DNA of 64,000 nucleotides from Trypanosoma brucei (lineage: Eukaryota), in the NCBI GenBank assembly GCA_000002445.1, contig CP000070.1:1440001-1504000 (forward strand). The letters run 5' to 3'. The notes under the pieces were generated by a model. It had not been told where the DNA came from and ran no database searches. It was given only the letters and a program-made list of their open reading frames with translations. Of this stretch, positions 1 to 54,782 are shown piece by piece. The position numbers and the translations under genes are program-made. Each line of letters begins with the position of its first letter. Within the stretch, counting starts at the first letter, position 1.

Positions 1-261
1 AAAATGACAATGCATTAGTCCTTCCGTTGCAATATATAAATATGTATATATGTATATATGTATATGTGTATATTTATGTATATATATACATATTTATTTG
101 GATGTTTTACATATTTGTATGTTCCGCTTATATAAATAAATATATATATATACACATATTTAATTATTTTATTTTATTGTTTGTTCATTGACTTACCTGC
201 GCGCACATGTCCCCGAGTGTCCGTTTGCCTGTCTCCATTTACATGTGTACTTTTATGTGTT

Positions 262-265
<4 letters not shown>

Positions 266-304
<39 letters not shown>

Positions 305-345
305 TTGTGTGTATGTGTATGTGTATGTGTGTGTGTGTGTGTATG
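266..345. repeat. Compound microsatellite: (AT)n of about 17 units followed by an imperfect (TG)n.
   Basis: atatatat... at 266-298, then gtgtatgtgtatgtgtgtgtgtgtgtgtgt at 300-345. Confidence 0.9.
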
Positions 346-2639
346 GCTTCCCTTCTTTCTTTTATTATTGTTATTGTCAAATGTGCAATCTGGTACCTAT
401 CTTCTTCCTGTTTTTATTCCCCGATGGGTTGCCGTTGTTTTCTTTTTTCTTTTTCTTTTTTTTACTCCACTTGACATTATTTTATTTATTATTTTATGTC
501 CTGCTCCTTTTTTTGTTTGTTTTCCTCTTATTTCTCCTCCATCCCTTCTTTTTTTTATTTTACTGCATTTTCTTTTCTAATTTATTTTATTATATTAAAA
601 ATACTTTCGCCATGTCCCTCTATTTCGTATATTACCCGACTCTTTCTTTCATGTGGTTGTATCGCAATATATATTGCTATTGCTATTACTATTCCTCCTA
701 CTATTGTTATTGTTATCTTTTATTATTTTCAAAAAAAGAATTTTTCTGTTCAATTTCTAGTTTATGTATCACTTTTTATTTGTTTGTTTATCGCCTTTGC
801 GTTAAATAATAAATTTTATGAAAACAAAGAAGAAAGGGAAACAATCCGAAACAAAGTCTCGTTCCACACATTTTGATTCTTTTTTTTAATTGTTCCTTCT
901 TTTTTTTTTTTTAGATCTTCCTGTTTCAAACCCTTCATTTTCCTTTTTGTTTTATTTTTATTCTCACTTCTTTACTGCAACTTTTATTTATTTATTTTGT
1001 CCTCATTTTTTTTTTTATTTCCCCCCCTCTTCCTCACTAATTTCTTCTCACCACAAAATACACGTCAGTAATCGTTGTGTTTGAAATCATATACTTAAAA
1101 TATATATATATATATATATTTTTTTTTCTCTCCATATATTTCTCCTTCATTCAACTTTTTTTTGTCCGCTTACCTTTTTTATCCCTTCCTTTCTTCTTTA
1201 AAAAAAATAATAATTAATTATTTTAATTTAAATAACTTTTTAAAGGGGTAGAAACCTTCGCAGTGGTCCTTTTTTTTGTTTTTAATTTTTATTTCTTTCC
1301 ACCTGAATTGTCTATTTTCCTTTTTGAGTTTAACGTTTATTATTATCATTATTATTTCCTTCTGTTTTTCATTGTTATTATTTTTTTTAATTTTTATTTA
1401 CTTCGTAACAAAATAAATAAAAATCAGAGAGGAAAAAAAGGAAGTCCTCCCTCTTTCTTTTCTTTTCTTTTTTTTCCCCCCTCTTCCCCCTTCAACTCAT
1501 CACTCTGCTTTCTCTTCAACAACCACATAAGTAGAAATTTTTTTTAAAATAAAAAGCTGAAGGATCAAAGTTTATATATTCCTTTCGGTTTTATTTTTCC
1601 TATTTTTCCAATTTGTATTGATTATTAAATTCTTAAATTATTACTGTTATTATTTGTTGTTATTATTATTATTTTATTTGTTATTTCTCCTTATTTATTG
1701 TGTTATTTTAAAATTTTCTTCATAATTTTTGTGTTTTTCATATTCCTTCCTTCCTTCCATTCTTTCTTTCTTTCTTTAATACCTTTATTTGTAATCATAT
1801 TATTATATTATTATTATTTTGATCAACTCCATTATTTGTTTACTGCGGCTACCACACTTTCTGCTAAAAGTTTATTACAATAATAGTAATAAATGTTGTT
1901 ATTTTTATTTGTTGTTGTGATTTTACGTCTCTTGGTTCAAGAGGAGCTTAAATTTTTTTTGTCGCATGATTGTGAACAAATATATGCAATTGATATAAAT
2001 AAATATATATTTTTTTACATGTATGTATTTATATATGCATTTCCTGATGTGCTTATATCATTTATTCTATTGTCATGATTTCATCACTATTAAAATTGTG
2101 TGCCTGTGCCTTTCTCTCTCTCTGTCTGTCTGTGTGTTATGGTTATGGTTAGGGGGAGGCACCTTTCTTTCTTTCTTATCTTTTTTTTTTTAACCTCCCC
2201 CTTTTTAAAATTAATTAATTAATTAATTAATTTTTATTTAGTTATTTATATGTCTTTTTCTTCTCTTCCACCACCTGCTCCTCCTCCTCTATTTTTTTTA
2301 ATAAAAATATATATATTTACTATCTTTTTTTATTAATTGTTATTCTTCCATTAAATATATAAATAAATATTTATGTATCTCTTTTTTATGTATTAAATTT
2401 TCTTTACTTCCATTTTCGTTCCAGTCAGTTAAACTTGTTCCCGTTTATTTAACTAAATCCCCCCCCCCCACAAAAAAAAAAGAAAAAGAGGGAATATACA
2501 ACATTAATATATAAATGCGTGCGATATAGGTGGATCTTATTAGCCTTTTGTTTTTTTTTAAAAAATCCGTCTCTTGTATTTCATTACTTTTGTTGGTATA
2601 TATTTTAACCAATTGAGGACACAACAGCTATGATAATGA

Positions 2640-2712
2640 TGGTAATAATAAAAATATGTTGTTGTTACGATGATAATAATAATAATAATAAATATTATCA
2701 TTATTATTATTG
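2640..2712. repeat. (TAA)n / (TTA)n near-palindromic trinucleotide repeat.
   Basis: gataataataataataataaatattatcattattattattg is an inverted-symmetric arrangement. Confidence 0.8.
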
Positions 2713-5670
2713 CTATTGTGTCATATCATATCAGGGTTTCATTTATTTATAAATAAATATATATTGTTATTATATGATCGTGTGTGTTTGTGTTTTGACG
2801 TGGCTGTAGAGAAGGGGAGATTTATATTCAACTTTTTATTTGTTTTACATTTTCTTCGTTTTGTATGTATTTAAAAGAAGTAAAAATAAATAAATTAATA
2901 TATATATATATATATATATTAAAAATCTTAAGTGTCCTTCTGAGCTAAAGCTGTTGCGTGTTTATAAGAAAATGAAAAGAAAAAAAAGAAAAACGAAAGG
3001 GATAAATAGATAAAGGATCGGTGTAATAATTTTTGTTATTTGTTTATTTATATTTCCTCCCTCTTCCCTTTTATCTGTTTTTTTTCCGCATTTTCTTCGG
3101 GATTCGCTTCATCATTTATTTTGTTTATATATTTCTTTTCTTTTTTCTTTATCTTTTTCATTCGTAATTGTTATATTTATTCCCTTTTTTCCTTTTCTAT
3201 ATTTTCACCCCACTTTTATTATGATGTACATTTATATGCGTATCAAATCTGTCGATTTTATTTTATTTTATTGTTTTACTATTTTCTTTTTCTTTTGTTT
3301 CTTTTTGTTTTTTATTTTTATTTTATTATTATTATCATCATGTTGTGATGACTGTTTTTCTGTCCTCTCCTTTCAATTTACCATTTCTGTCTTTTTTTTA
3401 TATGTTGTTCCTATTATTTATGTCTTTTTTAAAAAAAAAAATAATTTTGGAGGAGGTCGTTGTTATTATTGTTAATACTACTTTTATTATTGTTGGTAAC
3501 TATGATAATGAGGATTGTATTATTATTATTATTATCGTTGTTATTTTCCAGCTACAATTGGGGTTGAAACGTGAGAGATGGAAAAAGAAACAATAGAAAC
3601 AAAAGAGTCAAAACGAAAAAGAGTAGAAAAGAAAAAAAGAAAAGAAATAATAATAATAATAATACAATATTGATGACAATAAAATATATAATGAATAGAA
3701 AATAAGGGAGATATGAGGCTAAAAACCCGTAGAAAAGTCACTTGGAAATATAAAACAATGAATATTTTCCAGTATGTTAAGCGAACCCGTGAACAAAATG
3801 AAAGTCAAATATCGGTAGCTATTTAAAAAGGGGGAAAAACAACAACGGCCGGAACAAATACGTAAAGAAGAGTTTATCAATCACACTTTGCACGTGTAGT
3901 GAAACTCGTTCAAATTGATTAATAGACTAATTAATTGATTAAATAATTAAAAAATCATTCAAATCATTCTTACCAACGCATCTTCCCACATTTATATAAC
4001 TATATATTTTTCAGTATTGATGTATTTTTTTCTTTTATATTTCGTAACTGTCTTTTTTTTTCCGCTTTTTTTAAAAAGAAAGAAAAATGCCTACTATGCT
4101 GCTTCGTATTTTATATTAGGCTTTTTTGACCATTTCAACCCCGACATTTACCATCAATAAAGATGGTAATAATGAAATATATATATATACATATATAACT
4201 ACGGGAGGCCTTTTATTAAATTACTATTATCGTTTTTGTTTTTGTATTGTAGACCTTCTGCCTTGAAGAAAACAAGGCATGGGTGTAGAGAGGGGAAAAA
4301 AAACTAGATGTACGAAGATAAAAAGCTTTCTCATTTACTCTCTTCTTTTTTGTGTGTTTTATTAACGTCTGTTCTTAATTTTTTTTTCTTCTTATTTCTT
4401 AATTTTATTTGTTTATATTTTACTGATGTTGTGGGAAATGCGGAAAGGAGCTACTCACTTTTTTTCTTCCACTGAAGGGGAAAAGGAAGAAAATTTAACA
4501 TATATATTTTTCATAACTAAATGATAAAAGGGATTCGAGCCGGAGAAATATAAAAAAAAATGGGGAAAGAAGAAAAGAGAGAGATATGGAGTTAAATAGG
4601 TTTGTTACGTCTGAAAAACCTTTTGTGTATAAGTAAATAATATTAATATATATATTAATATTATATTATATATATGTTTGGTATTTAAATTTCTTATAAG
4701 GGGAAAACGATTATACGTAATGCACATATAAGTATTTACAATTATATATATTTACATATTCATACGCCTATACATTCACGTATACACACTTTTTTGATCA
4801 CTTATATTTATATTCACTTATATTAATTTGATTAGCATTGGTATATATGTATGACTGTACTTGTAGACCTCTGTTTGATACATTTCATATGGAAGAAAGG
4901 AGAAGAAGGGGGAGGGAAATGAAAAAAAGAAAATGAAAGAGAAAATGGCTCTCTACTGGGATAAAAACAGGAAAATAAAATTAGGGGGGAGAAGGTGCTT
5001 GCAAAGGGAAAACGACTCTTTTTTTGTTTTGTTTTTTTATTTTTATTTTTTGTTATTTATTTGTACGCGTCTGTTTCCGGCCTAAGTTGCGCACGGGGAG
5101 TTCGGGGGGCTGTTTATTATTATTATTATTATTTTCCCGGTTTCCACCGCTTTTTGTCGTTAGTGTTTATGCTTTTGTGTTTCGGGGGAGCAACGCACAA
5201 CTGTCACTTTGTCTTCGACGTGTCCTTTTGTGCATGCTTTAAAAAAATTTTTTATTTACTTGTTGTGAGCCTTGGAGGGAGGGAAGTTGCTTCACTGTTC
5301 CTTTTCTATTATTTTTTCCTTATTTTTATTTTGGTCTCTCATCATTTTTAATGGGGGTTTTGTTTTAACTGACTGTTGTTATTTTTTTTCCCTAACTGTC
5401 TTCAATGTTTGAGCGACTGTTATAAATCTTGACTTTTGATTATTTTTATCTTTTATTATTTTATTATTTTGTTTGTTTTCCTTTTTTTTTAAAAAAACCT
5501 TTTCTCTTTCTGCGTGCGTGAGTATGTGTCTGTTTCCAGACTGACCACTTTCAAAAAGTGATTTTTTTGTACACGCAATTTGGTAATGCGATCTGGCATC
5601 AAAATGATGATAAAAATGATCTGCTTTTTAATCCCGTTGTTTCTTCTGTGTCTACCGTTTCATCAATAGT

Positions 5671-13365: not shown

Positions 13366-16086
13366 ATGTCTGCCTCTCGATCTCCCTCTGGCAGTGGGAG
13401 TTTGTATCCCGCTGGCACCATGTCAACGGGATGTTCCCTGCCTTCATTGACGTGTCCCCCGAAACTTGGTGTGGGCAAGGTTGAGGGCAGTAGCGACACT
13501 GTTTCCATGGAGCGCTCGCAAGCTGGCAGCCAGTGGGCCGGCGGGACACATGCTGAAGAAGTGTGGGCATGCAAAAATGCTGCTTACACCAGGGCAATGA
13601 AATATTCCAAAGGATTGGTTGCGGACGTGGTGGATAGTTCGGTAGAATTCCTGCCACGCCGTCTCATGAGGAGTTCTGTGAACCACAGTATAAAGGACAG
13701 GAAATCGTCTTTCAGTGTCATGGCTGATGTTGGGCGCGACACGCAACAGCAATCTTTGGCTGCCACAAGCTGCAAAGGTACTTCATCCACTCCCATGAGT
13801 GAAGCCACATTCCCATTCCTTGACGGTGGGAAGGTACAACCAACGGATCCAGGGCACCTAAAAGCTGGAATTACGTACGATCCGCAGTCGTATGGATCGC
13901 TTTTACCCACGACGCTGAAGGTACGATCCGTTGAGGAAGCTGTGAGTGGCCCTCTAATGGGGGTTGCGGCTAACGAAATGTTTGCAAACCGAGATGCTAA
14001 ACAGATGTTGAGGGGTATTCTCCAGCCGGTACAGAAGACTTCGCAATTTTCACAGTACTTTGATCGACAACAGTTTGAGGGTAAAATGAGGCAGTTGGAG
14101 GAAAGCGCGCGACACTTCAGCAAATGTCTTGCTCAGCGTGTGTCTTCCAGTACCGGTGGTGGTGGTGTGATGATTGTCGTAAACGATTCTGATGATGGGA
14201 GCTCCGACGACGGTGGTTTGATGGGTGACGGTGTGAGACGCAGAGCTCGAAAGCCCGCCAAAATGGTAGACGAAGCGCGAGTAGCTGGCGACGCTGAATC
14301 TAATGCCCGGAAACAGCGACTTAACGCACTTCGTTGCACTCCACAGAATCTTTGTAGCTCGGTGGCGTTGCGTGATGCGTTGAAGAAAAGCAGGATTACG
14401 GTGAAGAAAGCACGATGCAGTGCTGTTAATGTAGCAAGACACAGCTCTGATCTACTGGAGCTTCTGCGGAGGAGAGGATCGAGGAGCACTGGTCCCCAGG
14501 AAGCGATGGTTGTTTTGCCCAACGAAGAGGTTTCATGGGACACGGGATCTGTTTCACCGAATAAGTGTACCCAAGCCTCATTTGCGTCGATACCGGATTC
14601 TGCATGTGGTAATGAGGGTCACCGCACCAAGGTTGTTACAGACCAGCGCGCTGTAACAATGCTGGAGTCGTTTTTGCGCAGCGGCAAGGGATTGACGACT
14701 CATGGTATTTTACCTGCAACACTGTATGGCAATCACTGTGGCCCCAATGGCGGCCAGTTGATCCCTGCACCAGAATCTTCGCGGTTACCATCAATGCTAG
14801 ATACTGCTTTCAGTGATGTTTTCTCCACTGGTGCATTATCACCAAGTGGGCAGCAGCTAGCGGCATCAGCAGAGTGCTTGCAACAGCAGAGGAAAAGTGT
14901 CCACCGTACGAAACCAGCCCGCCGTGTGATTCCTGTTGGTTACGGGATGAGTGCTCGTGCCCGTCAAAACTACGAGGCGATGGTGGAGAACTGGGAGGTG
15001 AGTGAGATCGAGCAAGAGCTTCGGAACGGGGAAGCATTATGCCACGCCCGCCGTCGGCTGCTGAAGCTCGTGTCTGAGCGCAAACGGTTGTTAAACGCGT
15101 CGCTCGCGCACTTCCACCATAACCCGCAGCAAGCCGTGTCGCTGCAGCGGCGTGAGATATTCCGGATGGTTGTCGAGGTTGATGCCGAGGACCGTAAGCA
15201 GGCGTGTTTTTCATTTGTTGATTTGCTTGAACAGTGCTGCCGGAACACTCTGGATGATGCCGCATGGTCTGTTGTTTCCGGCGCCTTGAAGTCTAGCCGC
15301 GATCTTATCCAACTCTCTCCACTACGGTGCAACCCGCAGAATTTCATTTCCATTCTGAACGACTGTCTGTCATTGCAGCATATCCGGGATCAGCGCGTTC
15401 AAGATGCTCTACAGTGGTTAGCAAAACTCTTTGGTGTATCGCAAGGGCAATTCAAGTCTGCACTACAATCATTGCACCACAACCTCAACAAGCCACGCGA
15501 TTACGAGGCACGGTTCCATGAAATTGACAGCCGCGTGTGTGGGATAGCAGCGTCCACTGAGAGACGTGTTCGTATTAAACTGCGCCGTTGCAACTTTCAG
15601 CTTCCCCGTCCTGTGGGTGCTGGCAACCAAATGAACCCCCTTGTCACCAGCAATGGTGATGGCGCTGTGGGCTGTGTGTTGGGTCCCAACACCTGTGTTG
15701 ATCGTCCTGAAGTATCGCTCGTTTTTCAGCTGGGAAATGAAACTGCCGTCTCCTCAACACTCAGCGCTCATCGTAGCGGTACCGGAGGGAGTGGTGATGT
15801 GGTGTGTGAGATGGTTGATGACGCCCCGTGCTATGTGGTTGACTTCAATGACGAAATTGTGCAGCTGAAGACTGTGGACACCAGTGTGGTACGCGTCTCT
15901 CTTTACTGCAACGGCAACGTTCTTTGCAGTGGCTTCTTGCACCTGTCCAAGTGTACTTTCCACAGTAATCGTACCTTATCTGTCATTCTTCGTCTCGACA
16001 ACAAAAGAATATTTGTGGCTGATCTGAGGATCAATGTGGAGCTTGTGTATGGAAGGGACCGCCGGGGGCGGGGTGGGAGAAGGTAG
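13366..16086 (+). CDS. Hypothetical protein of 906 aa (copy A). It has no recognisable domain and an acidic Asp/Ser-rich patch flanked by basic stretches.
   Basis: ATG-initiated 2.7-kb ORF duplicated at 19902-22622; the two copies differ at 3 amino-acid positions. Confidence 0.75.
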   Translation: MSASRSPSGSGSLYPAGTMSTGCSLPSLTCPPKLGVGKVEGSSDTVSMERSQAGSQWAGGTHAEEVWACKNAAYTRAMKYSKGLVADVVDSSVEFLPRRLMRSSVNHSIKDRKSSFSVMADVGRDTQQQSLAATSCKGTSSTPMSEATFPFLDGGKVQPTDPGHLKAGITYDPQSYGSLLPTTLKVRSVEEAVSGPLMGVAANEMFANRDAKQMLRGILQPVQKTSQFSQYFDRQQFEGKMRQLEESARHFSKCLAQRVSSSTGGGGVMIVVNDSDDGSSDDGGLMGDGVRRRARKPAKMVDEARVAGDAESNARKQRLNALRCTPQNLCSSVALRDALKKSRITVKKARCSAVNVARHSSDLLELLRRRGSRSTGPQEAMVVLPNEEVSWDTGSVSPNKCTQASFASIPDSACGNEGHRTKVVTDQRAVTMLESFLRSGKGLTTHGILPATLYGNHCGPNGGQLIPAPESSRLPSMLDTAFSDVFSTGALSPSGQQLAASAECLQQQRKSVHRTKPARRVIPVGYGMSARARQNYEAMVENWEVSEIEQELRNGEALCHARRRLLKLVSERKRLLNASLAHFHHNPQQAVSLQRREIFRMVVEVDAEDRKQACFSFVDLLEQCCRNTLDDAAWSVVSGALKSSRDLIQLSPLRCNPQNFISILNDCLSLQHIRDQRVQDALQWLAKLFGVSQGQFKSALQSLHHNLNKPRDYEARFHEIDSRVCGIAASTERRVRIKLRRCNFQLPRPVGAGNQMNPLVTSNGDGAVGCVLGPNTCVDRPEVSLVFQLGNETAVSSTLSAHRSGTGGSGDVVCEMVDDAPCYVVDFNDEIVQLKTVDTSVVRVSLYCNGNVLCSGFLHLSKCTFHSNRTLSVILRLDNKRIFVADLRINVELVYGRDRRGRGGRR

Positions 16087-17112: not shown

Positions 17113-18735
17113 ATGTATACAACAACAGACCTCATACAGACGCGGGTCGCTCCAGCACACTTGTTTGTTATTGTCTACTTTCTACAGTGGTTGTTTGTGG
17201 CGAGTACCGCATCTGGCGAGAGTGTTCATGCGATCTTCAAAATATCGAAATCTGGAGATGCACCCTTCTTCAAACAAGCTGAGAGGCACTGCGAGCGCGC
17301 TAAAATGCGTCTTGCGACGCCGACGACGGCAAAGGGGGCGACTGCTGTGAAGAAGTTGCTGAAACGCTGCGGTCCATCTGATGTACCCGTACTTGGCGGT
17401 GGCCTAAGCGTGCGATGCAGCAGTAACTCTTTTTTCTTCTTGTGGTCACCGAAACTGGATGAACCCAAGTACCCTGTTGAGGACACAGCACCATACTGCG
17501 GGGAACGCGATCCGCGAGGGTGGGGGACCAAGTGTGTGACAAGGAACAGGAGTGCGGGGAGGTTATTTTACCAATTTCATACATCTGAGGGCGAGAAAGG
17601 GAACTGTACCGGACCTGTGACAATGGACTATGACCCGGCGATTCTCTATGAATTGGAGGTCCCTAGTGCTGGTGAGGAGGGTCTCCTCGCATGGGTTGTC
17701 TCGCGTGGTGGCAAGAACGGAAGCACTGCTGCGCTTAGGAGCCTTCGATCAGACTTGGAGGACACATCCCGCGCATACATTGGAGATTCGAGCAAAATGA
17801 TCGAGTACGTCCTGTGTGAGGGTGGAAGGTCCTCCGTCGTGTCTTCCACATCATGCTATTCCGTTCCTTTTATCCTATCAGTTGCAAGTAGCGATGACAA
17901 GTCGCATTTTGATCATCGGCACAACGTCACTATTGGTATATTGGTTTTAATTGTTTTAATTTTAATTATTGTAGCCGCTTTCTTAATTTTGTGGCTCCTT
18001 TCACGGAACCGTCCGGCAGGTGATGTTGAGGAAAACCGGCGCAACGGATCAGATGTACAGAGAACTGTCGTTGAGTCGGTTGGTGATTTAGGTGGAACTG
18101 TTAGATCCGAAAGCTACTCGGGGCGAGGTAGCAAGTCGGGTGACAATCTTTGTCGTCCGGAAAATGTAAACGGTAATTGTCCCCAGGTGAATAATGGATT
18201 CTGTGTTAACGGATCCCCCCAACAAGAAAATTTGCAAATGAATGCCCCTGGACAACAACCAAATTTTAACTACCACAGCACAACACCCGAAATACAAACA
18301 TACAGTGGCGAAATGGAACTACGGACTAACTTTGGTGGTCCTATCTTGTACCGCCAAGGAAGCTTCAGACAAAATATAACCTCCGACGTCAATCCAACAC
18401 CGCTAAGCGCCACACAGCGTCCTGGGAGCTTCCGTGGCTCAAGCCCCAACCATCAGGGTTGTTTCAACCGTAGTGATGTATTTCGTGAGCCTAGTCTCTA
18501 TGGTGAATCTCCTCCTCACGGTGATCCACGCTTGGGTTTAAACCATCCTCGGGACATTGGCTACGACAGGGGAAATGCCCCGGAGCAGGTGAGCCTTTCT
18601 TCGGTCGGTATGGCCCAACAGGGCAACTTTGCAAACGTTGGTGCACGTGGCGGGAACTTCCGAGGAATAAACCGCAACCAACAAGGAAGTTTCCGCAACT
18701 CGAACCCGCCGTCTGGTGGTTTGTTTAACACGTAG
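17113..18735 (+). CDS. Type-I membrane protein (540 aa), paralogue B. The N-terminal 263 aa are identical to paralogue A. The transmembrane and juxtamembrane segment is diverged. The C-terminal ~100 aa are near-identical.
   Basis: ATG at 17113. Transmembrane helix IGILVLIVLILIIVAAFLILWLL. The tail carries YRQGSFRQN, RPGSFRG, GGNFRG and QQGSFRN. Confidence 0.8.
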   Translation: MYTTTDLIQTRVAPAHLFVIVYFLQWLFVASTASGESVHAIFKISKSGDAPFFKQAERHCERAKMRLATPTTAKGATAVKKLLKRCGPSDVPVLGGGLSVRCSSNSFFFLWSPKLDEPKYPVEDTAPYCGERDPRGWGTKCVTRNRSAGRLFYQFHTSEGEKGNCTGPVTMDYDPAILYELEVPSAGEEGLLAWVVSRGGKNGSTAALRSLRSDLEDTSRAYIGDSSKMIEYVLCEGGRSSVVSSTSCYSVPFILSVASSDDKSHFDHRHNVTIGILVLIVLILIIVAAFLILWLLSRNRPAGDVEENRRNGSDVQRTVVESVGDLGGTVRSESYSGRGSKSGDNLCRPENVNGNCPQVNNGFCVNGSPQQENLQMNAPGQQPNFNYHSTTPEIQTYSGEMELRTNFGGPILYRQGSFRQNITSDVNPTPLSATQRPGSFRGSSPNHQGCFNRSDVFREPSLYGESPPHGDPRLGLNHPRDIGYDRGNAPEQVSLSSVGMAQQGNFANVGARGGNFRGINRNQQGSFRNSNPPSGGLFNT

Positions 18736-19901: not shown

Positions 19902-22622
19902 ATGTCTGCCTCTCGATCTCCCTCTGGCAGTGGGAGTTTGTATCCCGCTGGCACCATGTCAACGGGATGTTCCCTGCCTTCATTGACGTGTCCCCCGAAA
20001 CTTGGTGTGGGCAAGGTTGAGGGCAGTAGCGACACTGTTTCCATGGAGCGCTCGCAAGCTGGCAGCCAGTGGGCCGGCGGGACACATGCTGAAGAAGTGT
20101 GGGCATGCAAAAATGCTGCTTACACCAGGGCAATGAAATATTCCAAAGGATTGGTTGCGGACGTGGTGGATAGTTCGGTAGAATTCCTGCCACGCCGTCT
20201 CATGAGGAGTTCTGTGAACCACAGTATAAAGGACAGGAAATCGTCTTTCAGTGTCATGGCTGATGTTGGGCGCGACACGCAACAGCAATCTTTGGCTGCC
20301 ACAAGCTGCAAAGGTACTTCATCCACTCCCATGAGTGAAGCCACATTCCCATTCCTTGACGGTGGGAAGGTACAACCAACGGATCCAGGGCACCTAAAAG
20401 CTGGAATTACGTACGATCCGCAGTCGTATGGATCGCTTTTACCCACGACGCTGAAGGTACGATCCGTTGAGGAAGCTGTGAGTGGCCCTCTAATGGGGGT
20501 TGCGGCTAACGAAATGTTTGCAAACCGAGATGCTAAACAGATGTTGAGGGGTATTCTCCAGCCGGTACAGAAGACTTCGCAATTTTCACAGTACTTTGAT
20601 CGACAACAGTTTGAGGGTAAAATGAGGCAGTTGGAGGAAAGCGCGCGACACTTCAGCAAATGTCTTGCTCAGCGTGTGTCTTCCAGTACCGGTGGTGGTG
20701 GTGTGATGATTGTCGTAAACGATTCTGATGATGGGAGCTCCGACGACGGTGGTTTGATGGGTGACGGTGTGAGACGCAGAGCTCGAAAGCCCGCCAAAAT
20801 GGTAGACGAAGCGCGAGTAGCTGGCGACGCTGAATCTAATGCCCGGAAACAGCGACTTAACGCACTTCGTTGCACTCCACAGAATCTTTGTAGCTCGGTG
20901 GCGTTGCGTGATGCGTTGAAGAAAAGCAGGATTACGGTGAAGAAAGCACGATGCAGTGCTGTTAATGTAGCAAGACACAGCTCTGATCTACTGGAGCTTC
21001 TGCGGAGGAGAGGATCGAGGAGCACTGGTCCCCAGGAAGCGATGGTTGTTTTGCCCAACGAAGAGGTTTCATGGGACACGGGATCTGTTTCACCGAATAA
21101 GTGTACCCAAGCCTCATTTGCGTCGATACCGGATTCTGCATGTGGTAATGAGGGTCACCGCACCAAGGTTGTTACAGACCAGCGCGCTGTAACAATGCTG
21201 GAGTCGTTTTTGCGCAGCGGCAAGGGATTGACGACTCATGGTATTTTACCTGCAACACTGTATGGCAATCACTGTGGCCCCAATGGCGGCCAGTTGATCT
21301 CTGCACCAGAATCTTCGCGGTTACCATCAATGCTAGATACTGCTTTCAGTGATGTTTTCTCCACTGGTGCATTATCACCAAGTGGGCAGCAGCTAGCGGC
21401 ATCAGCAGAGTGCTTGCAACAGCAGAGGAAAAGTGTCCACCGTACGAAACCAGCCCGCCGTGTGATTCCTGTTGGTTACGGGATGAGTGCTCGTGCCCGT
21501 CAAAACTACGAGGCGATGGTGGAGAACTGGGAGGTGAGTGAGATCGAGCAAGAGCTTCGGAACGGGGAAGCATTATGCCACGCCCGCCGTCGGCTGCTGA
21601 AGCTCGTGTCTGAGCGCAAACGGTTGTTAAACGCGTCGCTCGCGCACTTCCACCATAACCCGCAGCAAGCCGTATCGCTGCAGCGGCGTGAGATATTCCG
21701 GATGGTTGTCGAGGTTGATGCCGAGGACCGTAAGCAGGCGTGTTTTTCATTTGTTGATTTGCTTGAACAGTGCTGCCGGAACACTCTGGATGATGCCGCA
21801 TGGTCTGTTGTTTCCGGCGCCTTGAAGTCTAGCCGCGATCTTATCCAACTCTCTCCACTACGGTGCAACCCGCAGAATTTCATTTCCATTCTGAACGACT
21901 GTCTGTCATTGCAGCATATCCGGGATCAGCGCGTTCAAGATGCTCTACAGTGGTTAGCAAAACTCTTTGGTGTATCGCAAGGGCAATTCAAGTCTGCACT
22001 ACAATCATTGCACCACAACCTCAACAAGCCACGCGATTACGAGGCACGGTTCCATGAAATTGACAGCCGCGTGTGTGGGATAGCAGCGTCCACTGAGAGA
22101 CGTGTTCGTATTAAACTGCGCCGTTGCAACTTTCAGCTTCCCCGTCCTGTGGGTGCTGGCAGCCAAATGAACCCCCTTGTCACCAGCAATGGTGATGGCG
22201 CTGTGGGCTGTGTGTTGGGTCCCAACACCTGTGTTGATCGTCCTGAAGTATCGCTCGTTTTTCAGCTGGGAAATGAAACTGCCGTCTCCTCAACACTCAG
22301 CGCTCATCGTAGCGGTACCGGAGGGAGTGGTGATGTGGTGTGTGAGATGGTTGATGACGCCCCGTGCTATGTGGTTGACTTCAATGACGAAATTGTGCAG
22401 CTGAAGCCTGTGGACACCAGTGTGGTACGCGTCTCTCTGTCCTGCAACGGCAACGTTCTTTGCAGTGGCTTCTTGCACCTGTCCAAGTGTACCTTCCACA
22501 GTAATCGTACCTTATCTGTCATTCTTCGTCTCGACAACAAAAGAATATTTGTGGCTGATCTGAGGATCAATGTGGAGCTTGTGTATGGAAGGGACCGCCG
22601 GGGGCGGGGTGGGAGAAGGTAG
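19902..22622 (+). CDS. Hypothetical protein of 906 aa (copy B).
   Basis: Substitutions relative to copy A: P to S at IPAPESS / ISAPESS, N to S at GAGNQ / GAGSQ, and T to P with Y to S at LKTVDTSVVRVSLY / LKPVDTSVVRVSLS. Confidence 0.75.
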   Translation: MSASRSPSGSGSLYPAGTMSTGCSLPSLTCPPKLGVGKVEGSSDTVSMERSQAGSQWAGGTHAEEVWACKNAAYTRAMKYSKGLVADVVDSSVEFLPRRLMRSSVNHSIKDRKSSFSVMADVGRDTQQQSLAATSCKGTSSTPMSEATFPFLDGGKVQPTDPGHLKAGITYDPQSYGSLLPTTLKVRSVEEAVSGPLMGVAANEMFANRDAKQMLRGILQPVQKTSQFSQYFDRQQFEGKMRQLEESARHFSKCLAQRVSSSTGGGGVMIVVNDSDDGSSDDGGLMGDGVRRRARKPAKMVDEARVAGDAESNARKQRLNALRCTPQNLCSSVALRDALKKSRITVKKARCSAVNVARHSSDLLELLRRRGSRSTGPQEAMVVLPNEEVSWDTGSVSPNKCTQASFASIPDSACGNEGHRTKVVTDQRAVTMLESFLRSGKGLTTHGILPATLYGNHCGPNGGQLISAPESSRLPSMLDTAFSDVFSTGALSPSGQQLAASAECLQQQRKSVHRTKPARRVIPVGYGMSARARQNYEAMVENWEVSEIEQELRNGEALCHARRRLLKLVSERKRLLNASLAHFHHNPQQAVSLQRREIFRMVVEVDAEDRKQACFSFVDLLEQCCRNTLDDAAWSVVSGALKSSRDLIQLSPLRCNPQNFISILNDCLSLQHIRDQRVQDALQWLAKLFGVSQGQFKSALQSLHHNLNKPRDYEARFHEIDSRVCGIAASTERRVRIKLRRCNFQLPRPVGAGSQMNPLVTSNGDGAVGCVLGPNTCVDRPEVSLVFQLGNETAVSSTLSAHRSGTGGSGDVVCEMVDDAPCYVVDFNDEIVQLKPVDTSVVRVSLSCNGNVLCSGFLHLSKCTFHSNRTLSVILRLDNKRIFVADLRINVELVYGRDRRGRGGRR

Positions 22623-52601: not shown

Positions 52602-54782
52602 ATGCCGCTAGGGATTGTTGCTGCTCCTGCAGCTCGCAAAGCCACTTCGCTCTTTTCACCGATAGCTATCGGGGCAAATAACCGTGTTGTGTTACCCAAC
52701 CGTTTCGTTATGTTACCCATGTACCTCAATATCGAACAGGAGCTTGACATGTGGAGCGACGCTCACATGGATGCCATGGGTACATTTTTCGCAGAGCGCG
52801 CAAGGAATGGTGCCAAGCTAATCGTATGTGGTGGATTGGGTGTCTCCCGTCTCGGAAAGTGGCGGGTGGATAGCATGTCACTTGACACCCGTGACGCAGC
52901 AAAGGCCCTATCGCGTGTGACGGAAGCCGTGCATAAAGAGGGCGGACTTATCCTTGCTCAGGCCCTTCACCCTGGCAGAGCGGCGCGTCGGCGATGGTTT
53001 GTTTCTTCCACCTCCACGCCATCTCCCGTCCAACCGTTTCCTCAGGCACATCCGTGGCGCGTTCCGGGAATGCTACTGGAGTACATTGTGTCCGAGCATG
53101 AGCGATTTGCTCGGCTAGCGGAAGCAGCAGGTTTCGACGGTATTGAAATACCAGTCAGTGAGGGCGCCTTGTTACACAATTTTCTCTCACCTGCCGTCAA
53201 CGACAGGAATGACCGCTTTGGTCGCTCACTTGATGGGAGAATAGAGCCCACGCTCCGGACCCTTGACGCGGTGCGCCGCTCTCTTTCGGACCCTGAGAAG
53301 TTTCTTCTCTCTGTACGGTTGTGCGTGCACGACCTGAAGGTGGGGGGAACCTCCATGGCTGAGACCGTTGCGGTGGCTGAAGCGTTGGCGCGCTTTGGTG
53401 GTGTGGACATGTTAAGCACCAGTGTCGGAATGCACGACTCACCCGTGCAGACCATGGCTTCGTACGTTCCGCAGGCCACGTTCGCTCGGTGCGTACAACA
53501 CGTACGCGAACAACTGCATTTACGTGGGGTAATTCTTCCTGTCGTTGCCACACATCGGGTGCATTCCATAGCTGTAGCAGAGCGATTATTGAAGGATGGT
53601 GTATGTGACCTTGTTGGTGTTGGGCGGCCGTTGCTTGCTGACCCGCAGATGATCCGAAAGGCAGAGGAAGGTCACACCGAGGATATCATCCCCTGCATTG
53701 CGTGTAATCACTGTGTTAATCGTCTGTACAAGCACCAGCGCATGACGTGTGCGCTTAATCCTTTCAGTGGTTATGAACGGGAGCGCCGGTGCACTCCTGC
53801 GCTGTTCAAGAAATCGATAGCCGTTGTTGGTGCAGGTGCTGCGGGTGTTACGTGTGCACTCACGTTATGGCGCCGTGGTCACGATGTTACACTTTTTGAA
53901 AAGTCGAATTACGTTGGCGGGCAACTTAACCTCGCGAAGGTGGTCCCTGGTAAGGAGTCCTACCAGGAGATTTTGGAATACTGGACCAGACAGCTACGGG
54001 AGTCGGCCATTAATGTAAGACTTGGCGCGGAGTTCACCCGGGAAGAGATGGCTCGAAATCACCAATTTTTTCACGCTGTAGTACTTTGCTGCGGAAGCGT
54101 GCCACGTCCCGCTACATCTCACCAGCTTCCCGGAACATCTGAAAGCCGCCTCGTTGTGCCTTTCGAAAAGATTCTTAATGGTAGTGTCCGCGCGGGTCGG
54201 CGCGTTGTTATTATTGGAAATGGTGCGATTTCGCATGATGTGGCCTCGTATTTGCTCCACGACCCGCGTGTGTCACGGAGCATTCACGAGTACTGCGACG
54301 AATGGGGTGTTAACCTCGACGATGGCAGTCTTGACCCACAGGCTGCCTTCCGAGTGCCGCGTAACAACCGCGATGTGGTGTTATTTAATAAAGCGGACAA
54401 GGATGCTGATCTTTCGCGGGGGAGGGGTTGGACGCAAAAGCTGTGGATTCGAAACCACGGTGGTACTATTATCAAACATGGCCTCGTCGAAAATATCGAC
54501 GGAAACGGCGTTCACATCTCTATGGTGCCACCAGACAGTCGCAAATTTTTCGTTGAGTGTGATACCATTGTTTGGGCGTATGGGATGTTGCCGAACATCT
54601 CCGTGGGAACGTGGATTTATGAATGGATGAAGGATGGTGCAAAAAAGCGAGGGGAAATGATTAGGGACTTCAGCATATACAATGCGGGGTCGTGTCGTGA
54701 TAGTTACAGTGGCGAAGGACACGGAGAGCAGGACCTGCTGCAGGCCGTGCATGAGGGGTATGAAATCGGTTACAAGATTTGA
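52602..54782 (+). CDS. FadH-type 2,4-dienoyl-CoA reductase / NADH:flavin oxidoreductase. It has an N-terminal Old-Yellow-Enzyme TIM barrel, a 4Fe-4S Cys motif, and a C-terminal FAD/NAD(P)-binding domain.
   Basis: OYE start LFSPIAIGANNRVVLPNRFVMLPM. An H-x-G-R motif AQALHPGRAARR. Cys cluster CIACNHCVNRLYKHQRMTCALNP. Dinucleotide-binding sites IAVVGAGAAGVTCALTLWRRGHDVTLFEKSNYVGGQL and RVVIIGNGAISHDVASYL. Confidence 0.8.
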   Translation: MPLGIVAAPAARKATSLFSPIAIGANNRVVLPNRFVMLPMYLNIEQELDMWSDAHMDAMGTFFAERARNGAKLIVCGGLGVSRLGKWRVDSMSLDTRDAAKALSRVTEAVHKEGGLILAQALHPGRAARRRWFVSSTSTPSPVQPFPQAHPWRVPGMLLEYIVSEHERFARLAEAAGFDGIEIPVSEGALLHNFLSPAVNDRNDRFGRSLDGRIEPTLRTLDAVRRSLSDPEKFLLSVRLCVHDLKVGGTSMAETVAVAEALARFGGVDMLSTSVGMHDSPVQTMASYVPQATFARCVQHVREQLHLRGVILPVVATHRVHSIAVAERLLKDGVCDLVGVGRPLLADPQMIRKAEEGHTEDIIPCIACNHCVNRLYKHQRMTCALNPFSGYERERRCTPALFKKSIAVVGAGAAGVTCALTLWRRGHDVTLFEKSNYVGGQLNLAKVVPGKESYQEILEYWTRQLRESAINVRLGAEFTREEMARNHQFFHAVVLCCGSVPRPATSHQLPGTSESRLVVPFEKILNGSVRAGRRVVIIGNGAISHDVASYLLHDPRVSRSIHEYCDEWGVNLDDGSLDPQAAFRVPRNNRDVVLFNKADKDADLSRGRGWTQKLWIRNHGGTIIKHGLVENIDGNGVHISMVPPDSRKFFVECDTIVWAYGMLPNISVGTWIYEWMKDGAKKRGEMIRDFSIYNAGSCRDSYSGEGHGEQDLLQAVHEGYEIGYKI

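What the first reader, a model, noticed from the sequence alone, without database searches (positions are those of the whole stretch)
52602..54782. Bacterial-type FadH (OYE + 4Fe-4S + FAD/NADPH) dienoyl-CoA reductase: a horizontal-transfer candidate with apparently elevated GC.
The three-module architecture is that of bacterial FadH-like 2,4-dienoyl-CoA reductases, not of the eukaryotic short-chain-dehydrogenase-type DECR: an OYE TIM barrel, a CxxCxxC...C cluster, and a two-Rossmann FAD/NADPH domain. By eye the coding sequence is more GC-rich than its neighbours, with many GCG/CGC/GGC codons. Trypanosomatid FadH-like genes have been proposed as ancient bacterial acquisitions. This copy sits within an otherwise ordinary eukaryotic gene array.
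Basis: partly seen in the sequence, partly recalled or inferred. Interest (0 to 1): 0.5.

Follow-up and report, generated by a model that had tools for sequence, protein, structure and literature searches.

The report
Trypanosome "DECR-like" iron-sulfur flavoprotein gene
This is the already annotated Trypanosoma brucei gene Tb927.7.5540, an ancient bacterial-derived relative of the fatty-acid enzyme FadH that has lost FadH's catalytic tyrosine and shows no compositional trace of foreign origin, so both the gene and its horizontal-transfer story are known, while its real function is still open.

Summary
The ORF at 52602-54782 (+, 726 aa) is real and has the FadH architecture: an OYE/FMN TIM barrel, a four-Cys cluster motif and an FAD/NADPH domain. 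Its best solved relative is E. coli FadH (1PS9, E 7e-98; AF2 model TM 0.84/0.90). It is identical to T. brucei TREU927 XP_846177 (Tb927.7.5540).

Semini et al. 2020 (PMC7267886) call this clade "DECR-like". It is distinct from the true kinetoplastid 2,4-dienoyl-CoA reductase, which that paper reports as absent from T. brucei. That paper also already proposes bacterial origin by LGT.

The GC argument fails:
- GC3s is 0.521 against 0.479±0.030 in the neighbours (z 1.4).
- Codon usage matches the neighbours.
- The GC excess lies in codon position 1, because the protein is rich in Gly, Ala, Arg and Val.
- Gene order around the gene is conserved on kinetoplastid-like contigs whose proteins are only 46-49% identical.

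The catalytic Tyr166 of FadH is Ala here and Ser/Gly/Thr in the rest of the clade. Of 207 bacterial-invariant positions, 76 are changed, many of them to clade-invariant residues. The four Cys, both dinucleotide motifs and the residues I take to be FMN contacts are invariant. The CxxCxxC spacing matches that of TMADH.

It is therefore most likely an active but re-purposed reductase, not a canonical FadH. A 5-residue insertion shared with true DECRs hints at one acquisition followed by duplication, but this is unresolved.

The parts
52602..54782 (+). Complete coding sequence (726 aa plus stop) of the kinetoplastid 'DECR-like' protein, Tb927.7.5540
   Evidence: ORF listing. There are 0 of 726 differences from T. 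b. brucei TREU927 XP_846177/Q582G9. The gene ID appears in PMC4711719.
52647..53675 (+). OYE-type FMN-binding TIM-barrel domain (aa 16-358)
   Evidence: Pfam PF00724, E 3.7e-37. AF2 pLDDT is mostly above 90 here. Gln120, His123, Arg239 and Arg342 are invariant in 31 clade members. I take these to be FMN contacts from general knowledge of OYE enzymes.
52716..52724 (+). Pro39-Met-Tyr41, replacing the bacterial-invariant Ser-Met-His (E. coli Ser24/His26 in PDB numbering)
   Evidence: Bacteria have Ser at 96% and His at 100%. The alignment gives Pro 88% and Tyr 88%; alignment A1 has Tyr in 28 of 31.
53157..53168 (+). SEGA (aa 186-189): position of the FadH proton donor Tyr166 (SEGY in E. coli), here Ala189
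   Evidence: Tyr is 100% conserved in 78 bacterial homologues. In the clade the position is Ser 19, Gly 8, Thr 3, Ala 1 of 31, and never Tyr. The role of Tyr166 is cited from PMC12691678.
53427..53441 (+). GMHDS (aa 276-280): His278 is the equivalent of FadH His252 and is kept; the flanking bacterial-invariant Trp, Glu and Ala are changed to Met, Asp and Ser
   Evidence: His is present in 27 of 31 clade members. Met277 is 91%, and Asp279 and Ser280 are 97% conserved in the clade, against Trp/Glu at 100% and Ala at 95% in bacteria.
53514..53528 (+). Five-residue insertion (LHLRG, aa 305-309) before the PVVATHR strand
   Evidence: The insertion is present in all DECR-like sequences, in all kinetoplastid true DECRs (including T. 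theileri FADH1) and in diplonemid-like relatives. Of 415 other sequences, 373 have the unexpanded loop length (31 residues) and about 7 have an unrelated +5 loop. One bacterial protein (P0251) has a similar loop.
53553..53564 (+). His318 and His321, replacing the bacterial-invariant Asn287 and Asn290 (TNRIN changed to THRVH)
   Evidence: His318 is found in 31 of 31 and His321 in 21 of 31 clade members. Both positions are Asn at 100% in bacteria.
53694..53750 (+). Putative [4Fe-4S] ligand motif C365-IA-C368-NH-C371-x11-C383 (CxxCxxC...C)
   Evidence: All four Cys are invariant in 31 clade members. The motif is one residue shorter than in FadH (CxxCxxxC). The spacing is the same as in trimethylamine dehydrogenase and histamine dehydrogenase. 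That those two crystal structures contain a bound cluster is my own knowledge. The four FadH cysteines are essential in vivo (PMC12691678).
53814..54605 (+). FAD/NAD(P)H-binding two-Rossmann domain (aa 405-668)
   Evidence: Pfam PF07992, E 8.6e-18. The domain aligns to 1PS9 throughout.
53829..53846 (+). First dinucleotide-binding motif GAGAAG (aa 410-415), with Glu433 at 53898-53900
   Evidence: G410, G412, G415 and E433 are invariant in the clade.
54216..54233 (+). Second dinucleotide-binding motif GNGAIS (aa 539-544); the bacterial form is GxGGIG
   Evidence: G539 and G541 are invariant. The last position is Ala or Ser in the clade instead of Gly.
54771..54779 (+). C-terminal tripeptide YKI, part of a clade-conserved ...EGYEIG-x-K-[I/V] end; a possible relaxed PTS1
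   Evidence: Lys725 is at least 90% conserved. Clade termini are YKI, CKI, SKI, CKV and HKV, whereas bacterial FadH ends are AAL, LAI, ARL and similar. The glycosomal assignment is cited by Semini et al..

Best explanation
The gene is Tb927.7.5540, the T. brucei member of the kinetoplastid-wide 'DECR-like' clade.

Origin. It descends from a bacterial FadH-type iron-sulfur flavoenzyme that entered the lineage before the kinetoplastids sampled here diverged. It has since been fully assimilated: host-like codon usage, a fixed place in a conserved polycistronic gene order, and a conserved C-terminal x-K-[I/V] end that may act as a relaxed glycosomal signal.

Mechanism (inferred). The protein still carries the FadH electron wire. 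NAD(P)H would reduce FAD in the C-terminal domain. Electrons would then pass one at a time through a [4Fe-4S] cluster held by Cys365, Cys368, Cys371 and Cys383 to FMN in the TIM barrel, and FMN would deliver a hydride to an activated C=C bond.

What differs. The substrate and protonation site has been rebuilt and then frozen by selection. The FadH proton donor Tyr166 is gone (Ala189). His26 has become Tyr41. Changes of Trp to Met, Glu to Asp, and Asn to His at two positions are conserved across the clade. Only His278 (FadH His252) remains of the catalytic dyad.

Conclusion. It is most likely an active reductase with a different substrate or a different protonation outcome. It is not the canonical 2,4-dienoyl-CoA to 2-enoyl-CoA reductase.

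What is shown and what is inferred. Shown here: identity, fold, motif conservation, composition and synteny. Inferred: cofactor occupancy, activity, substrate and localisation.
For: Identity:
- 0 of 726 differences from XP_846177/Q582G9, which is annotated '2,4-dienoyl-coa reductase-like protein'.
- Orthologues are at 79-86% identity in other Trypanosoma, about 68% in Leishmaniinae and 55% in Bodo.

Fold and architecture.

Clade:
- Monophyletic in 100/100 and 200/200 bootstraps.

Ancient and assimilated:
- GC3s z = 1.4. KL divergence from the pooled neighbours is 0.058 bits/codon, against 0.045±0.015 expected for the gene's length.
- The order PTH2 - hypothetical - DECR-like - TLDc is conserved on one-strand metagenome contigs at 46-49% protein identity (and for the window).

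Conserved divergence rather than decay:
- 131 of 207 bacterial-invariant positions are kept.
- The 76 changed positions include residues that are 91-100% conserved within the clade.
- A swapped Arg/Glu pair (E. coli R193/E197 to Tb E215/R219) suggests a retained salt bridge.
- 118 columns are invariant across 31 sequences.

Cofactor motifs:
- The four Cys, both GxG motifs, Glu433, Gln120, Arg239 and Arg342 are all 31/31.
- The CxxCxxC spacing equals that of TMADH and histamine dehydrogenase.

No bacterial counterpart:
- None of the top 150 of 1.84 billion representatives, apart from the clade itself and its intermediates, carries more than 6 of 26 clade signature states.
- The GTDB scan found only a canonical FadH, in a Berkiella MAG.

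Literature:
- DECR-like is present in all kinetoplastids and its function is unknown.
- The L. major Δdecr mutant accumulates 2,4-decadienoyl-CoA although DECR-like is present (PMC7267886).
Against: - No biochemical data exist for any clade member.
- Semini et al. report that only 5 of 11 FAD, 7 of 9 FMN and 5 of 9 active-site residues of FadH are conserved. Their homology model suggested that the cluster might not form.
The last ~65 residues of the AF2 model are of low confidence.
- His278 is not strictly invariant (27 of 31).
- T. brucei's C-terminal YKI has a Tyr at position -3. As far as I know that lies outside the usual PTS1 consensus. No localisation data for the T. brucei protein were found.
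- From memory only: an E. coli Y166F mutant is reported to remain active but to yield 3-enoyl-CoA (Tu et al. 2008; only the title was seen). If so, loss of the Tyr does not by itself exclude dienoyl-CoA reductase activity.
Confidence: 0.6

Rival explanations
1. It is a working 2,4-dienoyl-CoA reductase. It could be a glycosomal isoform that uses His278 as the only proton donor and releases 3-enoyl-CoA, which an enoyl-CoA isomerase would then process.
For: - FadH is the best sequence and structure match.
- All electron-transfer motifs and His278 are kept.
- The title of Tu et al. [quoted passage not shown]
- Other β-oxidation activities have been reported in glycosomes (PMC9512073).
Against: - The Tyr is lost throughout the clade. 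A further 75 bacterial-invariant positions are also changed, including His26, Trp251, Glu253, Asn287 and Asn290, which lie in segments that flank or are equivalent to known catalytic residues.
- L. major Δdecr cannot degrade unsaturated fatty acids and accumulates 2,4-decadienoyl-CoA although it retains DECR-like. A different compartment could explain this.
- No curated FadH-family model reaches its cut-off. The best, TIGR03997, scores 324 bits against a cut-off of 793.
Confidence: 0.2
2. It is a catalytically dead relic (pseudoenzyme) that no longer binds its cofactors. This follows the suggestion from the homology modelling of Semini et al.
For: - The paper's residue counts (5 of 11 FAD, 7 of 9 FMN, 5 of 9 active-site residues) and its modelled cluster geometry.
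- Loss of the catalytic Tyr.
Against: - The four Cys, both dinucleotide motifs, Glu433 and the putative FMN contacts Gln120, Arg239 and Arg342 are invariant across the clade, in sequences down to 46% identity.
- The replaced residues are themselves conserved.
- The CxxCxxC spacing is found in TMADH and histamine dehydrogenase, which to my knowledge bind a cluster.
- The AF2 model is confident through the barrel and the Cys region, with 10-residue block means of 81-94.
- A relic would not be expected to keep 118 invariant columns.
Confidence: 0.1
3. It is a recent horizontal acquisition that still carries a foreign GC and codon signature.
For: It has the highest whole-gene GC (0.537) and the highest GCG/CGC/GGC codon fraction (6.1%) in the window.
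Against: - GC3s z is 1.4.
- Synonymous usage is indistinguishable from the neighbours.
- The share of GCG/CGC/GGC among Ala/Arg/Gly codons is mid-range.
- Orthologues are present in all kinetoplastids sampled, with conserved synteny.
- The best bacterial identity is only 34-38%.
Confidence: 0.02
4. DECR-like and the true kinetoplastid DECR are paralogues. A single FadH acquisition in an early euglenozoan was followed by duplication and fast divergence of one copy. This contrasts with the two independent LGTs proposed in the literature.
For: - Both clades, and diplonemid-like relatives, share a 5-residue insertion of similar sequence at the same site. For example, T. theileri FADH1 has CRKYLREKG and DECR-like P0135 has LRKYLREKG. 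The insertion is absent from 373 of 415 other sequences.
- True DECR is present in free-living kinetoplastids: Neobodo, Papus and the one-strand contigs L017-L020. It is therefore as old as DECR-like.
- The two best non-clade hits of the DECR-like profile, P0137 and P0138, are such DECRs.
- An earlier NJ tree placed them as sister.
Against: - With broader sampling, NJ support for DECR-like plus DECR is 13 of 200, and quartet sites are uninformative.
- A +5 loop at this site occurs in a few bacterial lineages. One of them, P0251 from a genuine bacterial genome, has a similar motif.
- Semini et al. found each clade grouped with different bacteria, with aLRT support of 1 and 0.987.
Confidence: 0.35

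Closest known systems
Kinetoplastid 'DECR-like' proteins (LmjF.06.0930, LmxM.06.0930, Tb927.7.5540), as defined by Semini et al. 2020, mBio (PMC7267886)
   Same: It is this protein. The sequence is identical to the TREU927 entry, it falls in the same clade, it has the same conserved synteny, and it shows the same loss of FadH active-site residues.
   Different: Nothing differs in identity. My analysis disagrees with one inference in the paper. The four Cys are invariant and their spacing matches TMADH and histamine dehydrogenase, so the cluster is probably retained.
[quoted passage not shown]
   Same: - The three-module architecture and domain order are the same.
- About 30% identity, E 7e-98, TM 0.84/0.90.
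- Four Cys ligands, His252, both Rossmann motifs and the putative FMN contacts are present.
   Different: - Tyr166 is Ala (Ser/Gly/Thr elsewhere in the clade).
- His26 is Tyr, Trp251 is Met, Glu253 is Asp, and Asn287 and Asn290 are His.
- A one-residue deletion makes the motif CxxCxxC.
- There is a 5-residue insertion at aa 305-309 and a conserved x-K-[I/V] C-terminus.
- 76 of 207 bacterial-invariant positions are changed.
Kinetoplastid true DECR (LmjF.33.0830; T. theileri 'FADH1', P0413)
   Same: It has the same architecture and shares the 5-residue insertion before the PLVTTNRIN strand.
   Different: - True DECR keeps all canonical FadH residues (SEGY, CxxCxxxC).
- It is mitochondrial and is required for unsaturated fatty-acid β-oxidation in Leishmania.
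- It is reported absent from T. brucei.
Trimethylamine dehydrogenase and histamine dehydrogenase (PDB 1DJN/2TMD, 3K30, 6DE6), and 2-naphthoyl-CoA reductase (6QKG)
   Same: All have the same overall fold family (TM 0.74-0.76). TMADH and histamine dehydrogenase share the CxxCxxC cluster spacing seen here.
   Different: They are much more distant in sequence (E 1e-26 to 4e-57, against 7e-98 for FadH). From general knowledge, the amine dehydrogenases use covalently bound FMN and oxidise amines. No evidence for that chemistry was found here.
Eukaryotic SDR-type DECR1/DECR2
   Same: Only the name of the reaction.
   Different: The fold is unrelated. No short-chain dehydrogenase domain was detected in the protein. 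Those enzymes lack FMN, FAD and Fe-S cofactors (PMC12691678).

Membership tests
FadH-type 2,4-dienoyl-CoA reductase (E. coli FadH, 1PS9) | Three modules in order: OYE/FMN TIM barrel, Cys cluster motif, FAD/NADPH two-Rossmann domain | tested here: met
   Pfam PF00724 plus PF07992. The protein aligns to 1PS9 over residues 16-667. Foldseek TM is 0.84/0.90.
FadH-type 2,4-dienoyl-CoA reductase (E. coli FadH, 1PS9) | Four cysteine ligands of the [4Fe-4S] cluster (E. coli Cys335, 338, 342, 354; all essential in vivo) | tested here: met
   C365, C368, C371 and C383 are present and invariant in 31 clade members. The spacing is CxxCxxC, not CxxCxxxC, as in TMADH. Cluster occupancy itself cannot be tested here.
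FadH-type 2,4-dienoyl-CoA reductase (E. coli FadH, 1PS9) | Catalytic dyad Tyr166 / His252 | tested here: not met
   Tyr166 is Ala189. The clade has Ser, Gly, Thr or Ala there and never Tyr, whereas 78 bacterial homologues have Tyr at 100%. The His252 equivalent, His278, is kept in 27 of 31. The dyad is cited from PMC12691678.
FadH-type 2,4-dienoyl-CoA reductase (E. coli FadH, 1PS9) | Conservation of positions invariant across bacterial FadH homologues | tested here: not met
   131 of 207 positions that are at least 90% conserved in bacteria are kept. The 76 that differ include His26, Trp251, Glu253, Asn287 and Asn290.
FadH-type 2,4-dienoyl-CoA reductase (E. coli FadH, 1PS9) | [quoted passage not shown] | not testable with these tools
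   An enzyme assay is required. Indirect evidence: L. major Δdecr is not rescued by its DECR-like gene (PMC7267886).
Curated NCBIfam equivalogs of the FadH/OYE Fe-S flavoenzyme group (mycofactocin OYE-2, BilR, BaiCD) | Whole-protein score above the curated cut-off | tested here: not met
   The best match, TIGR03997, scores 323.7 bits against a cut-off of 793. BilR scores 248 against 750, and BaiCD 237 against 825.
Kinetoplastid DECR-like clade (LmjF.06.0930 / Tb927.7.5540) | Sequence membership in a monophyletic group | tested here: met
   The protein is identical to XP_846177. Clade bootstrap support is 100/100 and 200/200.
Kinetoplastid DECR-like clade (LmjF.06.0930 / Tb927.7.5540) | Clade signature residues (26 positions where the clade differs from bacterial FadH) | tested here: met
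   The window protein has 26 of 26, other clade members have 12-25, and all non-clade hits have 6 or fewer. The signature positions and accepted residues were derived from an alignment that includes this protein, so its own score is circular. The separation from non-clade hits is the informative part.
Kinetoplastid DECR-like clade (LmjF.06.0930 / Tb927.7.5540) | Conserved genomic context in a one-strand polycistron | tested here: met
   The order PTH2 - hypothetical - DECR-like - TLDc is seen in the window and on contigs L001, L003 and the P0032 contig.
Kinetoplastid DECR-like clade (LmjF.06.0930 / Tb927.7.5540) | Glycosomal localisation through a PTS | tested here: inconclusive
   The conserved C-terminal x-K-[I/V] end resembles a relaxed PTS1, but T. 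brucei has YKI. The localisation claims cited by Semini et al. are an in-silico prediction and Leishmania glycosome proteomes. No T. brucei data were found.
Eukaryotic SDR-type DECR1/DECR2 | Short-chain dehydrogenase fold, with no flavin or Fe-S cofactors | tested here: not met
   There is no SDR domain among the 14 Pfam hits. The fold is OYE plus Rossmann.
Trimethylamine / histamine dehydrogenase family | Closest sequence and structure relationship | tested here: not met
   E-values are 1e-26 to 1e-28 and TM is 0.74, against E 7e-98 and TM 0.84 for FadH. Only the CxxCxxC spacing is shared. The covalent-FMN cysteine was not examined.

The most novel reading that the evidence does not exclude
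The two FadH homologues of kinetoplastids may not come from two independent bacterial transfers. They may instead come from one acquisition in an early euglenozoan, before the kinetoplastid/diplonemid split, followed by duplication.

On this reading one copy stayed a canonical mitochondrial DECR. The other, represented by this gene, evolved rapidly into a new and still active NAD(P)H/FAD/[4Fe-4S]/FMN reductase. It would have a rebuilt active site and a glycosome-type C-terminus, and its substrate is unknown.

The shared 5-residue insertion and the presence of canonical DECR in Neobodo, Papus and diplonemid-like sequences do not exclude this reading and mildly favour it. My distance trees cannot decide.
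Probability: 0.3. Interest if true: 0.45.

Novelty: already known. Interest (0 to 1): 0.25.

Why it matters
As submitted, the finding adds nothing new. The gene is annotated, and its bacterial ancestry has been discussed since at least 2016-2020.

What remains of interest is narrower. This is a deeply conserved, parasite-specific iron-sulfur flavoenzyme with no human counterpart and no known substrate, found in every kinetoplastid examined. According to the literature it is the only FadH homologue left in T. brucei. If it is active, it marks an uncharted redox step, possibly in glycosomal lipid metabolism, and a possible drug target.

The question of one acquisition plus duplication against two transfers bears on how often LGT really shaped kinetoplastid metabolism.

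The case is also a caution. A GC impression gained by eye came from amino-acid composition, not from codon bias.

Tried and rejected
1. GC/codon signal of HGT. I computed GC1-3, GC3s, KL divergence and a CAI-like index against 18 neighbouring genes. The gene is not an outlier, so this was rejected.

2. Search for a bacterial donor carrying the clade signature.
- An exhaustive profile search of 1.84 billion representatives, followed by signature scoring, found none.
- The GTDB genome scan returned only a canonical FadH from a Berkiella MAG, which matched one pattern by chance.
- The unnamed hits at 44-51% identity turned out to lie on kinetoplastid-style contigs, not bacterial ones.

3. Phylogenetic placement of the clade. 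Three NJ/bootstrap analyses were run. The first two suggested a sister relation to the true-DECR family. With wider sampling, support fell to 13 of 200, with outgroup attraction in 55 of 200, and the quartet-site counts were 3/2/1. I treat the placement as unresolved. No ML software was available.

4. The shared insertion as proof of common origin. This was weakened when P0251, which has a similar loop, proved to be from a real bacterial genome.

5. Literature on Tb927.7.5540. Only two papers in the library mention the ID, and neither gives functional data.
- Tu et al. 2008 could not be read.
- Semini's supplements hold no sequences.
- The glycosome review does not mention the enzyme.

6. Cys-ligand geometry in the AF2 model.

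7. AT-rich 5' end of the window. Only microsatellites were found and there is no long tandem array. This was not pursued.


Full report
**Observation**

- Pfam finds an Oxidored_FMN (OYE) domain at residues 16-358 and a Pyr_redox_2 domain at 405-668.
- Between them lies C365-x2-C368-x2-C371-x11-C383.
- The best match among all solved structures is E. coli FadH (1PS9), E 7e-98 over residues 16-667. It is far ahead of 2-naphthoyl-CoA reductase (4e-57) and the amine dehydrogenases (about 1e-26 to 1e-28).
- An AlphaFold2 model built on a 31-sequence clade alignment (pLDDT 80.8, pTM 0.82, barrel above 90) superposes on 1PS9 with TM 0.84/0.90.

The architectural observation is therefore confirmed.

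**Composition**

- Whole-gene GC is 0.537, the highest among the 19 long + strand ORFs from 5932 onward.
- GC3 is 0.541, against neighbours that reach 0.539, 0.536 and 0.531.
- On synonymous sites only, GC3s is 0.521 against 0.479±0.030 (z 1.4, rank 2 of 19).
- KL divergence of the gene's synonymous usage from the pooled neighbours is 0.058 bits/codon. For a gene of this length 0.045±0.015 is expected.
- A CAI-like index is 0.826 against 0.837±0.011.
- GCG/CGC/GGC codons are indeed the most frequent in the window (6.1%). Their share among Ala/Arg/Gly codons is 0.234, mid-range (0.15-0.28).
- The excess is in GC1 (0.623) and comes from a protein rich in Gly, Ala, Arg and Val.

**Identity**

The protein has 0 of 726 differences from T. 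brucei brucei TREU927 XP_846177 / Q582G9, annotated '2,4-dienoyl-coa reductase-like protein'. The gene ID is Tb927.7.5540. The surrounding genes are DHFR-TS, a PRMT-like methyltransferase, PTH2, a TLDc protein, GFAT and MOB1, all on the + strand. This fits a kinetoplastid polycistron.

**What the literature already says**

Semini et al. 2020 (PMC7267886) report the following.
- Kinetoplastids have two FadH homologues.
- The true DECR (LmjF.33.0830) is mitochondrial and is needed for β-oxidation of unsaturated fatty acids and for virulence. It is absent from T. brucei.
- The 'DECR-like' protein (LmjF.06.0930 and its orthologues, including those of T. brucei and Bodo) is present in all kinetoplastids and has unknown function.
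- DECR-like keeps only 5 of 11 FAD, 7 of 9 FMN and 5 of 9 active-site residues of FadH, and is thought to be glycosomal.
- The authors propose two independent LGTs from bacteria and state that the donors are unresolved.

The gene ID is also in the gene list of an LGT survey (PMC4711719). The HGT idea is therefore not new, and the label 'FadH dienoyl-CoA reductase' is imprecise for this gene.

**Age of the gene**

- Named orthologues run from 79-86% identity (other Trypanosoma) through about 68% (Leishmaniinae) to 55% (Bodo saltans).
- A band of unnamed hits at 44-51% identity proved not to be bacterial. Their contigs carry one-strand arrays of eukaryotic genes with the same local order as the window: PP2C - PTH2 - hypothetical - DECR-like - TLDc (window).
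- The best bacterial identities are 34-38%. P0043, for example, sits between an IclR regulator and a hydrolase on mixed strands.

The gene was therefore in place before these lineages diverged. That explains the complete lack of a compositional signal.

**Residue-level comparison**

I did not rely on a remembered list of functional residues. I took the 207 alignment positions that are at least 90% conserved in 78 bacterial homologues and asked what the clade has there.
- 131 positions are kept and 76 differ.
- Many replacements are themselves nearly invariant in the clade.
  - The FadH proton donor Tyr166 (PDB numbering; SEGY) is Ala189 here. In 31 clade members it is Ser 19, Gly 8, Thr 3 and Ala 1.
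  - His26 is Tyr41.
  - Trp251, Glu253 and Ala254 are Met, Asp and Ser.
  - Asn287 is His318 (31 of 31), and Asn290 is His321.
  - An Arg/Glu pair is swapped to Glu/Arg, which suggests a preserved salt bridge.
- His278, the equivalent of His252, is kept in 27 of 31.
- That Tyr166/His252 is the catalytic dyad, and that the four cluster cysteines are essential in vivo, is taken from PMC12691678.
- The electron-transfer apparatus, by contrast, is invariant. This covers the four Cys, G410/G412/G415/E433 (first dinucleotide fold), G539/G541 (second), and Gln120, His123, Arg239 and Arg342 in the barrel.
- The one-residue deletion that turns FadH's CxxCxxxC into CxxCxxC gives exactly the spacing of trimethylamine dehydrogenase (CIGCNVC) and histamine dehydrogenase (CIGCNIC). 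To my knowledge both were crystallised with a [4Fe-4S] cluster.

I therefore think the suggestion from homology modelling that the cluster cannot form is probably wrong. The overall pattern looks like functional divergence under purifying selection, not decay.

**Is there a bacterial counterpart?**

- A profile of the clade was searched against 1.84 billion representative proteins. Scores drop from 596 bits or more (clade members and fragments) to 518 and 485 (P0137, P0138), and then fall smoothly.
- I scored the full-length hits for 26 clade signature positions. Every non-clade sequence has 6 or fewer clade states and nearly all have the CxxCxxxC motif. Clade members have 12-26.
- A scan of one genome per GTDB species with clade peptides found only a Berkiella FadH with canonical residues.

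No extant bacterial lineage resembling DECR-like was found.

**Targeting**

The clade ends in a conserved ...EGYEIG-x-K-[I/V] (YKI, CKI, SKI, CKV, HKV). Bacterial FadHs end in AAL, LAI, ARL and similar. This looks like a relaxed PTS1 and fits the glycosomal assignment. According to Semini's reference list, that assignment rests on an in-silico prediction and on Leishmania glycosome proteomes. T. brucei's YKI is atypical, and I found no localisation data for it.

**A side result on origin**

P0137 and P0138 belong to a family that includes T. theileri 'FADH1', Neobodo designis and Papus ankaliazontas, plus metagenome contigs with one-strand eukaryotic gene arrays. This is the true-DECR clade. 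It extends to free-living kinetoplastids. Related sequences come from a diplonemid (Rhynchopus humris) transcriptome and from a 1 Mb contig.

All of these, and all DECR-like proteins, share a 5-residue insertion of similar sequence before the PLVTTNRIN strand (Tb LHLRG, aa 305-309). It is absent from 373 of 415 other sequences that I hold. That points to a common origin of the two kinetoplastid genes, that is, one acquisition followed by duplication.

The point is not settled, for three reasons.
- With broad sampling, NJ support for DECR-like plus DECR is 13 of 200. The long branch is attracted to the outgroup in 55 of 200, and quartet sites are uninformative.
- A few bacterial lineages have a +5 loop at the same place.
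- One genuine bacterial protein (P0251, next to the str operon) has a similar motif.

I report it as a hypothesis at roughly 30-35%.

**Verdict**

The architecture is bacterial-type and the ancestry is very probably bacterial, as already published. The evidence offered is wrong, because there is no compositional anomaly. The functional label is also wrong, because this is DECR-like, not FadH/DECR.
- The best-supported mechanism is an NAD(P)H to FAD to [4Fe-4S] to FMN reductase with a rebuilt substrate and protonation site and an unknown substrate, possibly glycosomal.
- Novelty is 'already known' and interest is low. The remaining value lies in the unresolved function and origin of a parasite-specific Fe-S flavoenzyme.

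Noticed in passing
window 1-5000: This stretch is only 25-28% GC, against about 50% in the rest of the window. It has no convincing ORF and only short microsatellites (AT, TG, ATATGTAT). It lies upstream of the first + strand gene at 5932. It could be a strand-switch, transcription-start or other special chromosomal region.
   Followed up: partly
window 13366-16086 and 19902-22622: Two 906-aa ORFs are 99.7% identical at the DNA level. The identity extends 777 bp upstream and 524 bp downstream. The repeat unit is 6536 bp and contains a 540-aa ORF (17113-18735) between the copies. None of these ORFs has a Pfam domain.
   Followed up: partly
loci L017-L020; proteins P0137, P0294, P0295, P0298, P0407, P0413: Canonical FadH-type 'true DECR' genes occur in free-living kinetoplastids (Neobodo designis, Papus ankaliazontas) and on one-strand metagenome contigs. 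Semini et al. suggested that DECR was acquired after the split between free-living and parasitic kinetoplastids. These data suggest it is older.
   Followed up: partly
proteins P0480 (Rhynchopus humris, EukProt) and P0383 (on a 1.05 Mb ENA contig): [quoted passage not shown] This hints that the gene predates the kinetoplastid/diplonemid split.
   Followed up: partly
window 53244-53258 (aa 215-219): The bacterial-invariant pair Arg193...Glu197 (E. coli gene numbering) is swapped to Glu215...Arg219 in 88% of clade members. This looks like a compensatory salt-bridge swap.
   Followed up: no
window 53042-53569, minus strand: A 175-aa antisense ORF lies entirely inside the gene. I ran no search on it. 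I take it to be a by-product of the coding strand's composition.
   Followed up: no
locus L021 (GCA_015355785.1), protein P0251: A bacterial FadH homologue lies immediately downstream of an acyl-CoA dehydrogenase gene and a fused EPSP-synthase/AMP-ligase gene. It carries a +5 loop (RVHLRSLG) that resembles the euglenozoan insertion.
   Followed up: partly
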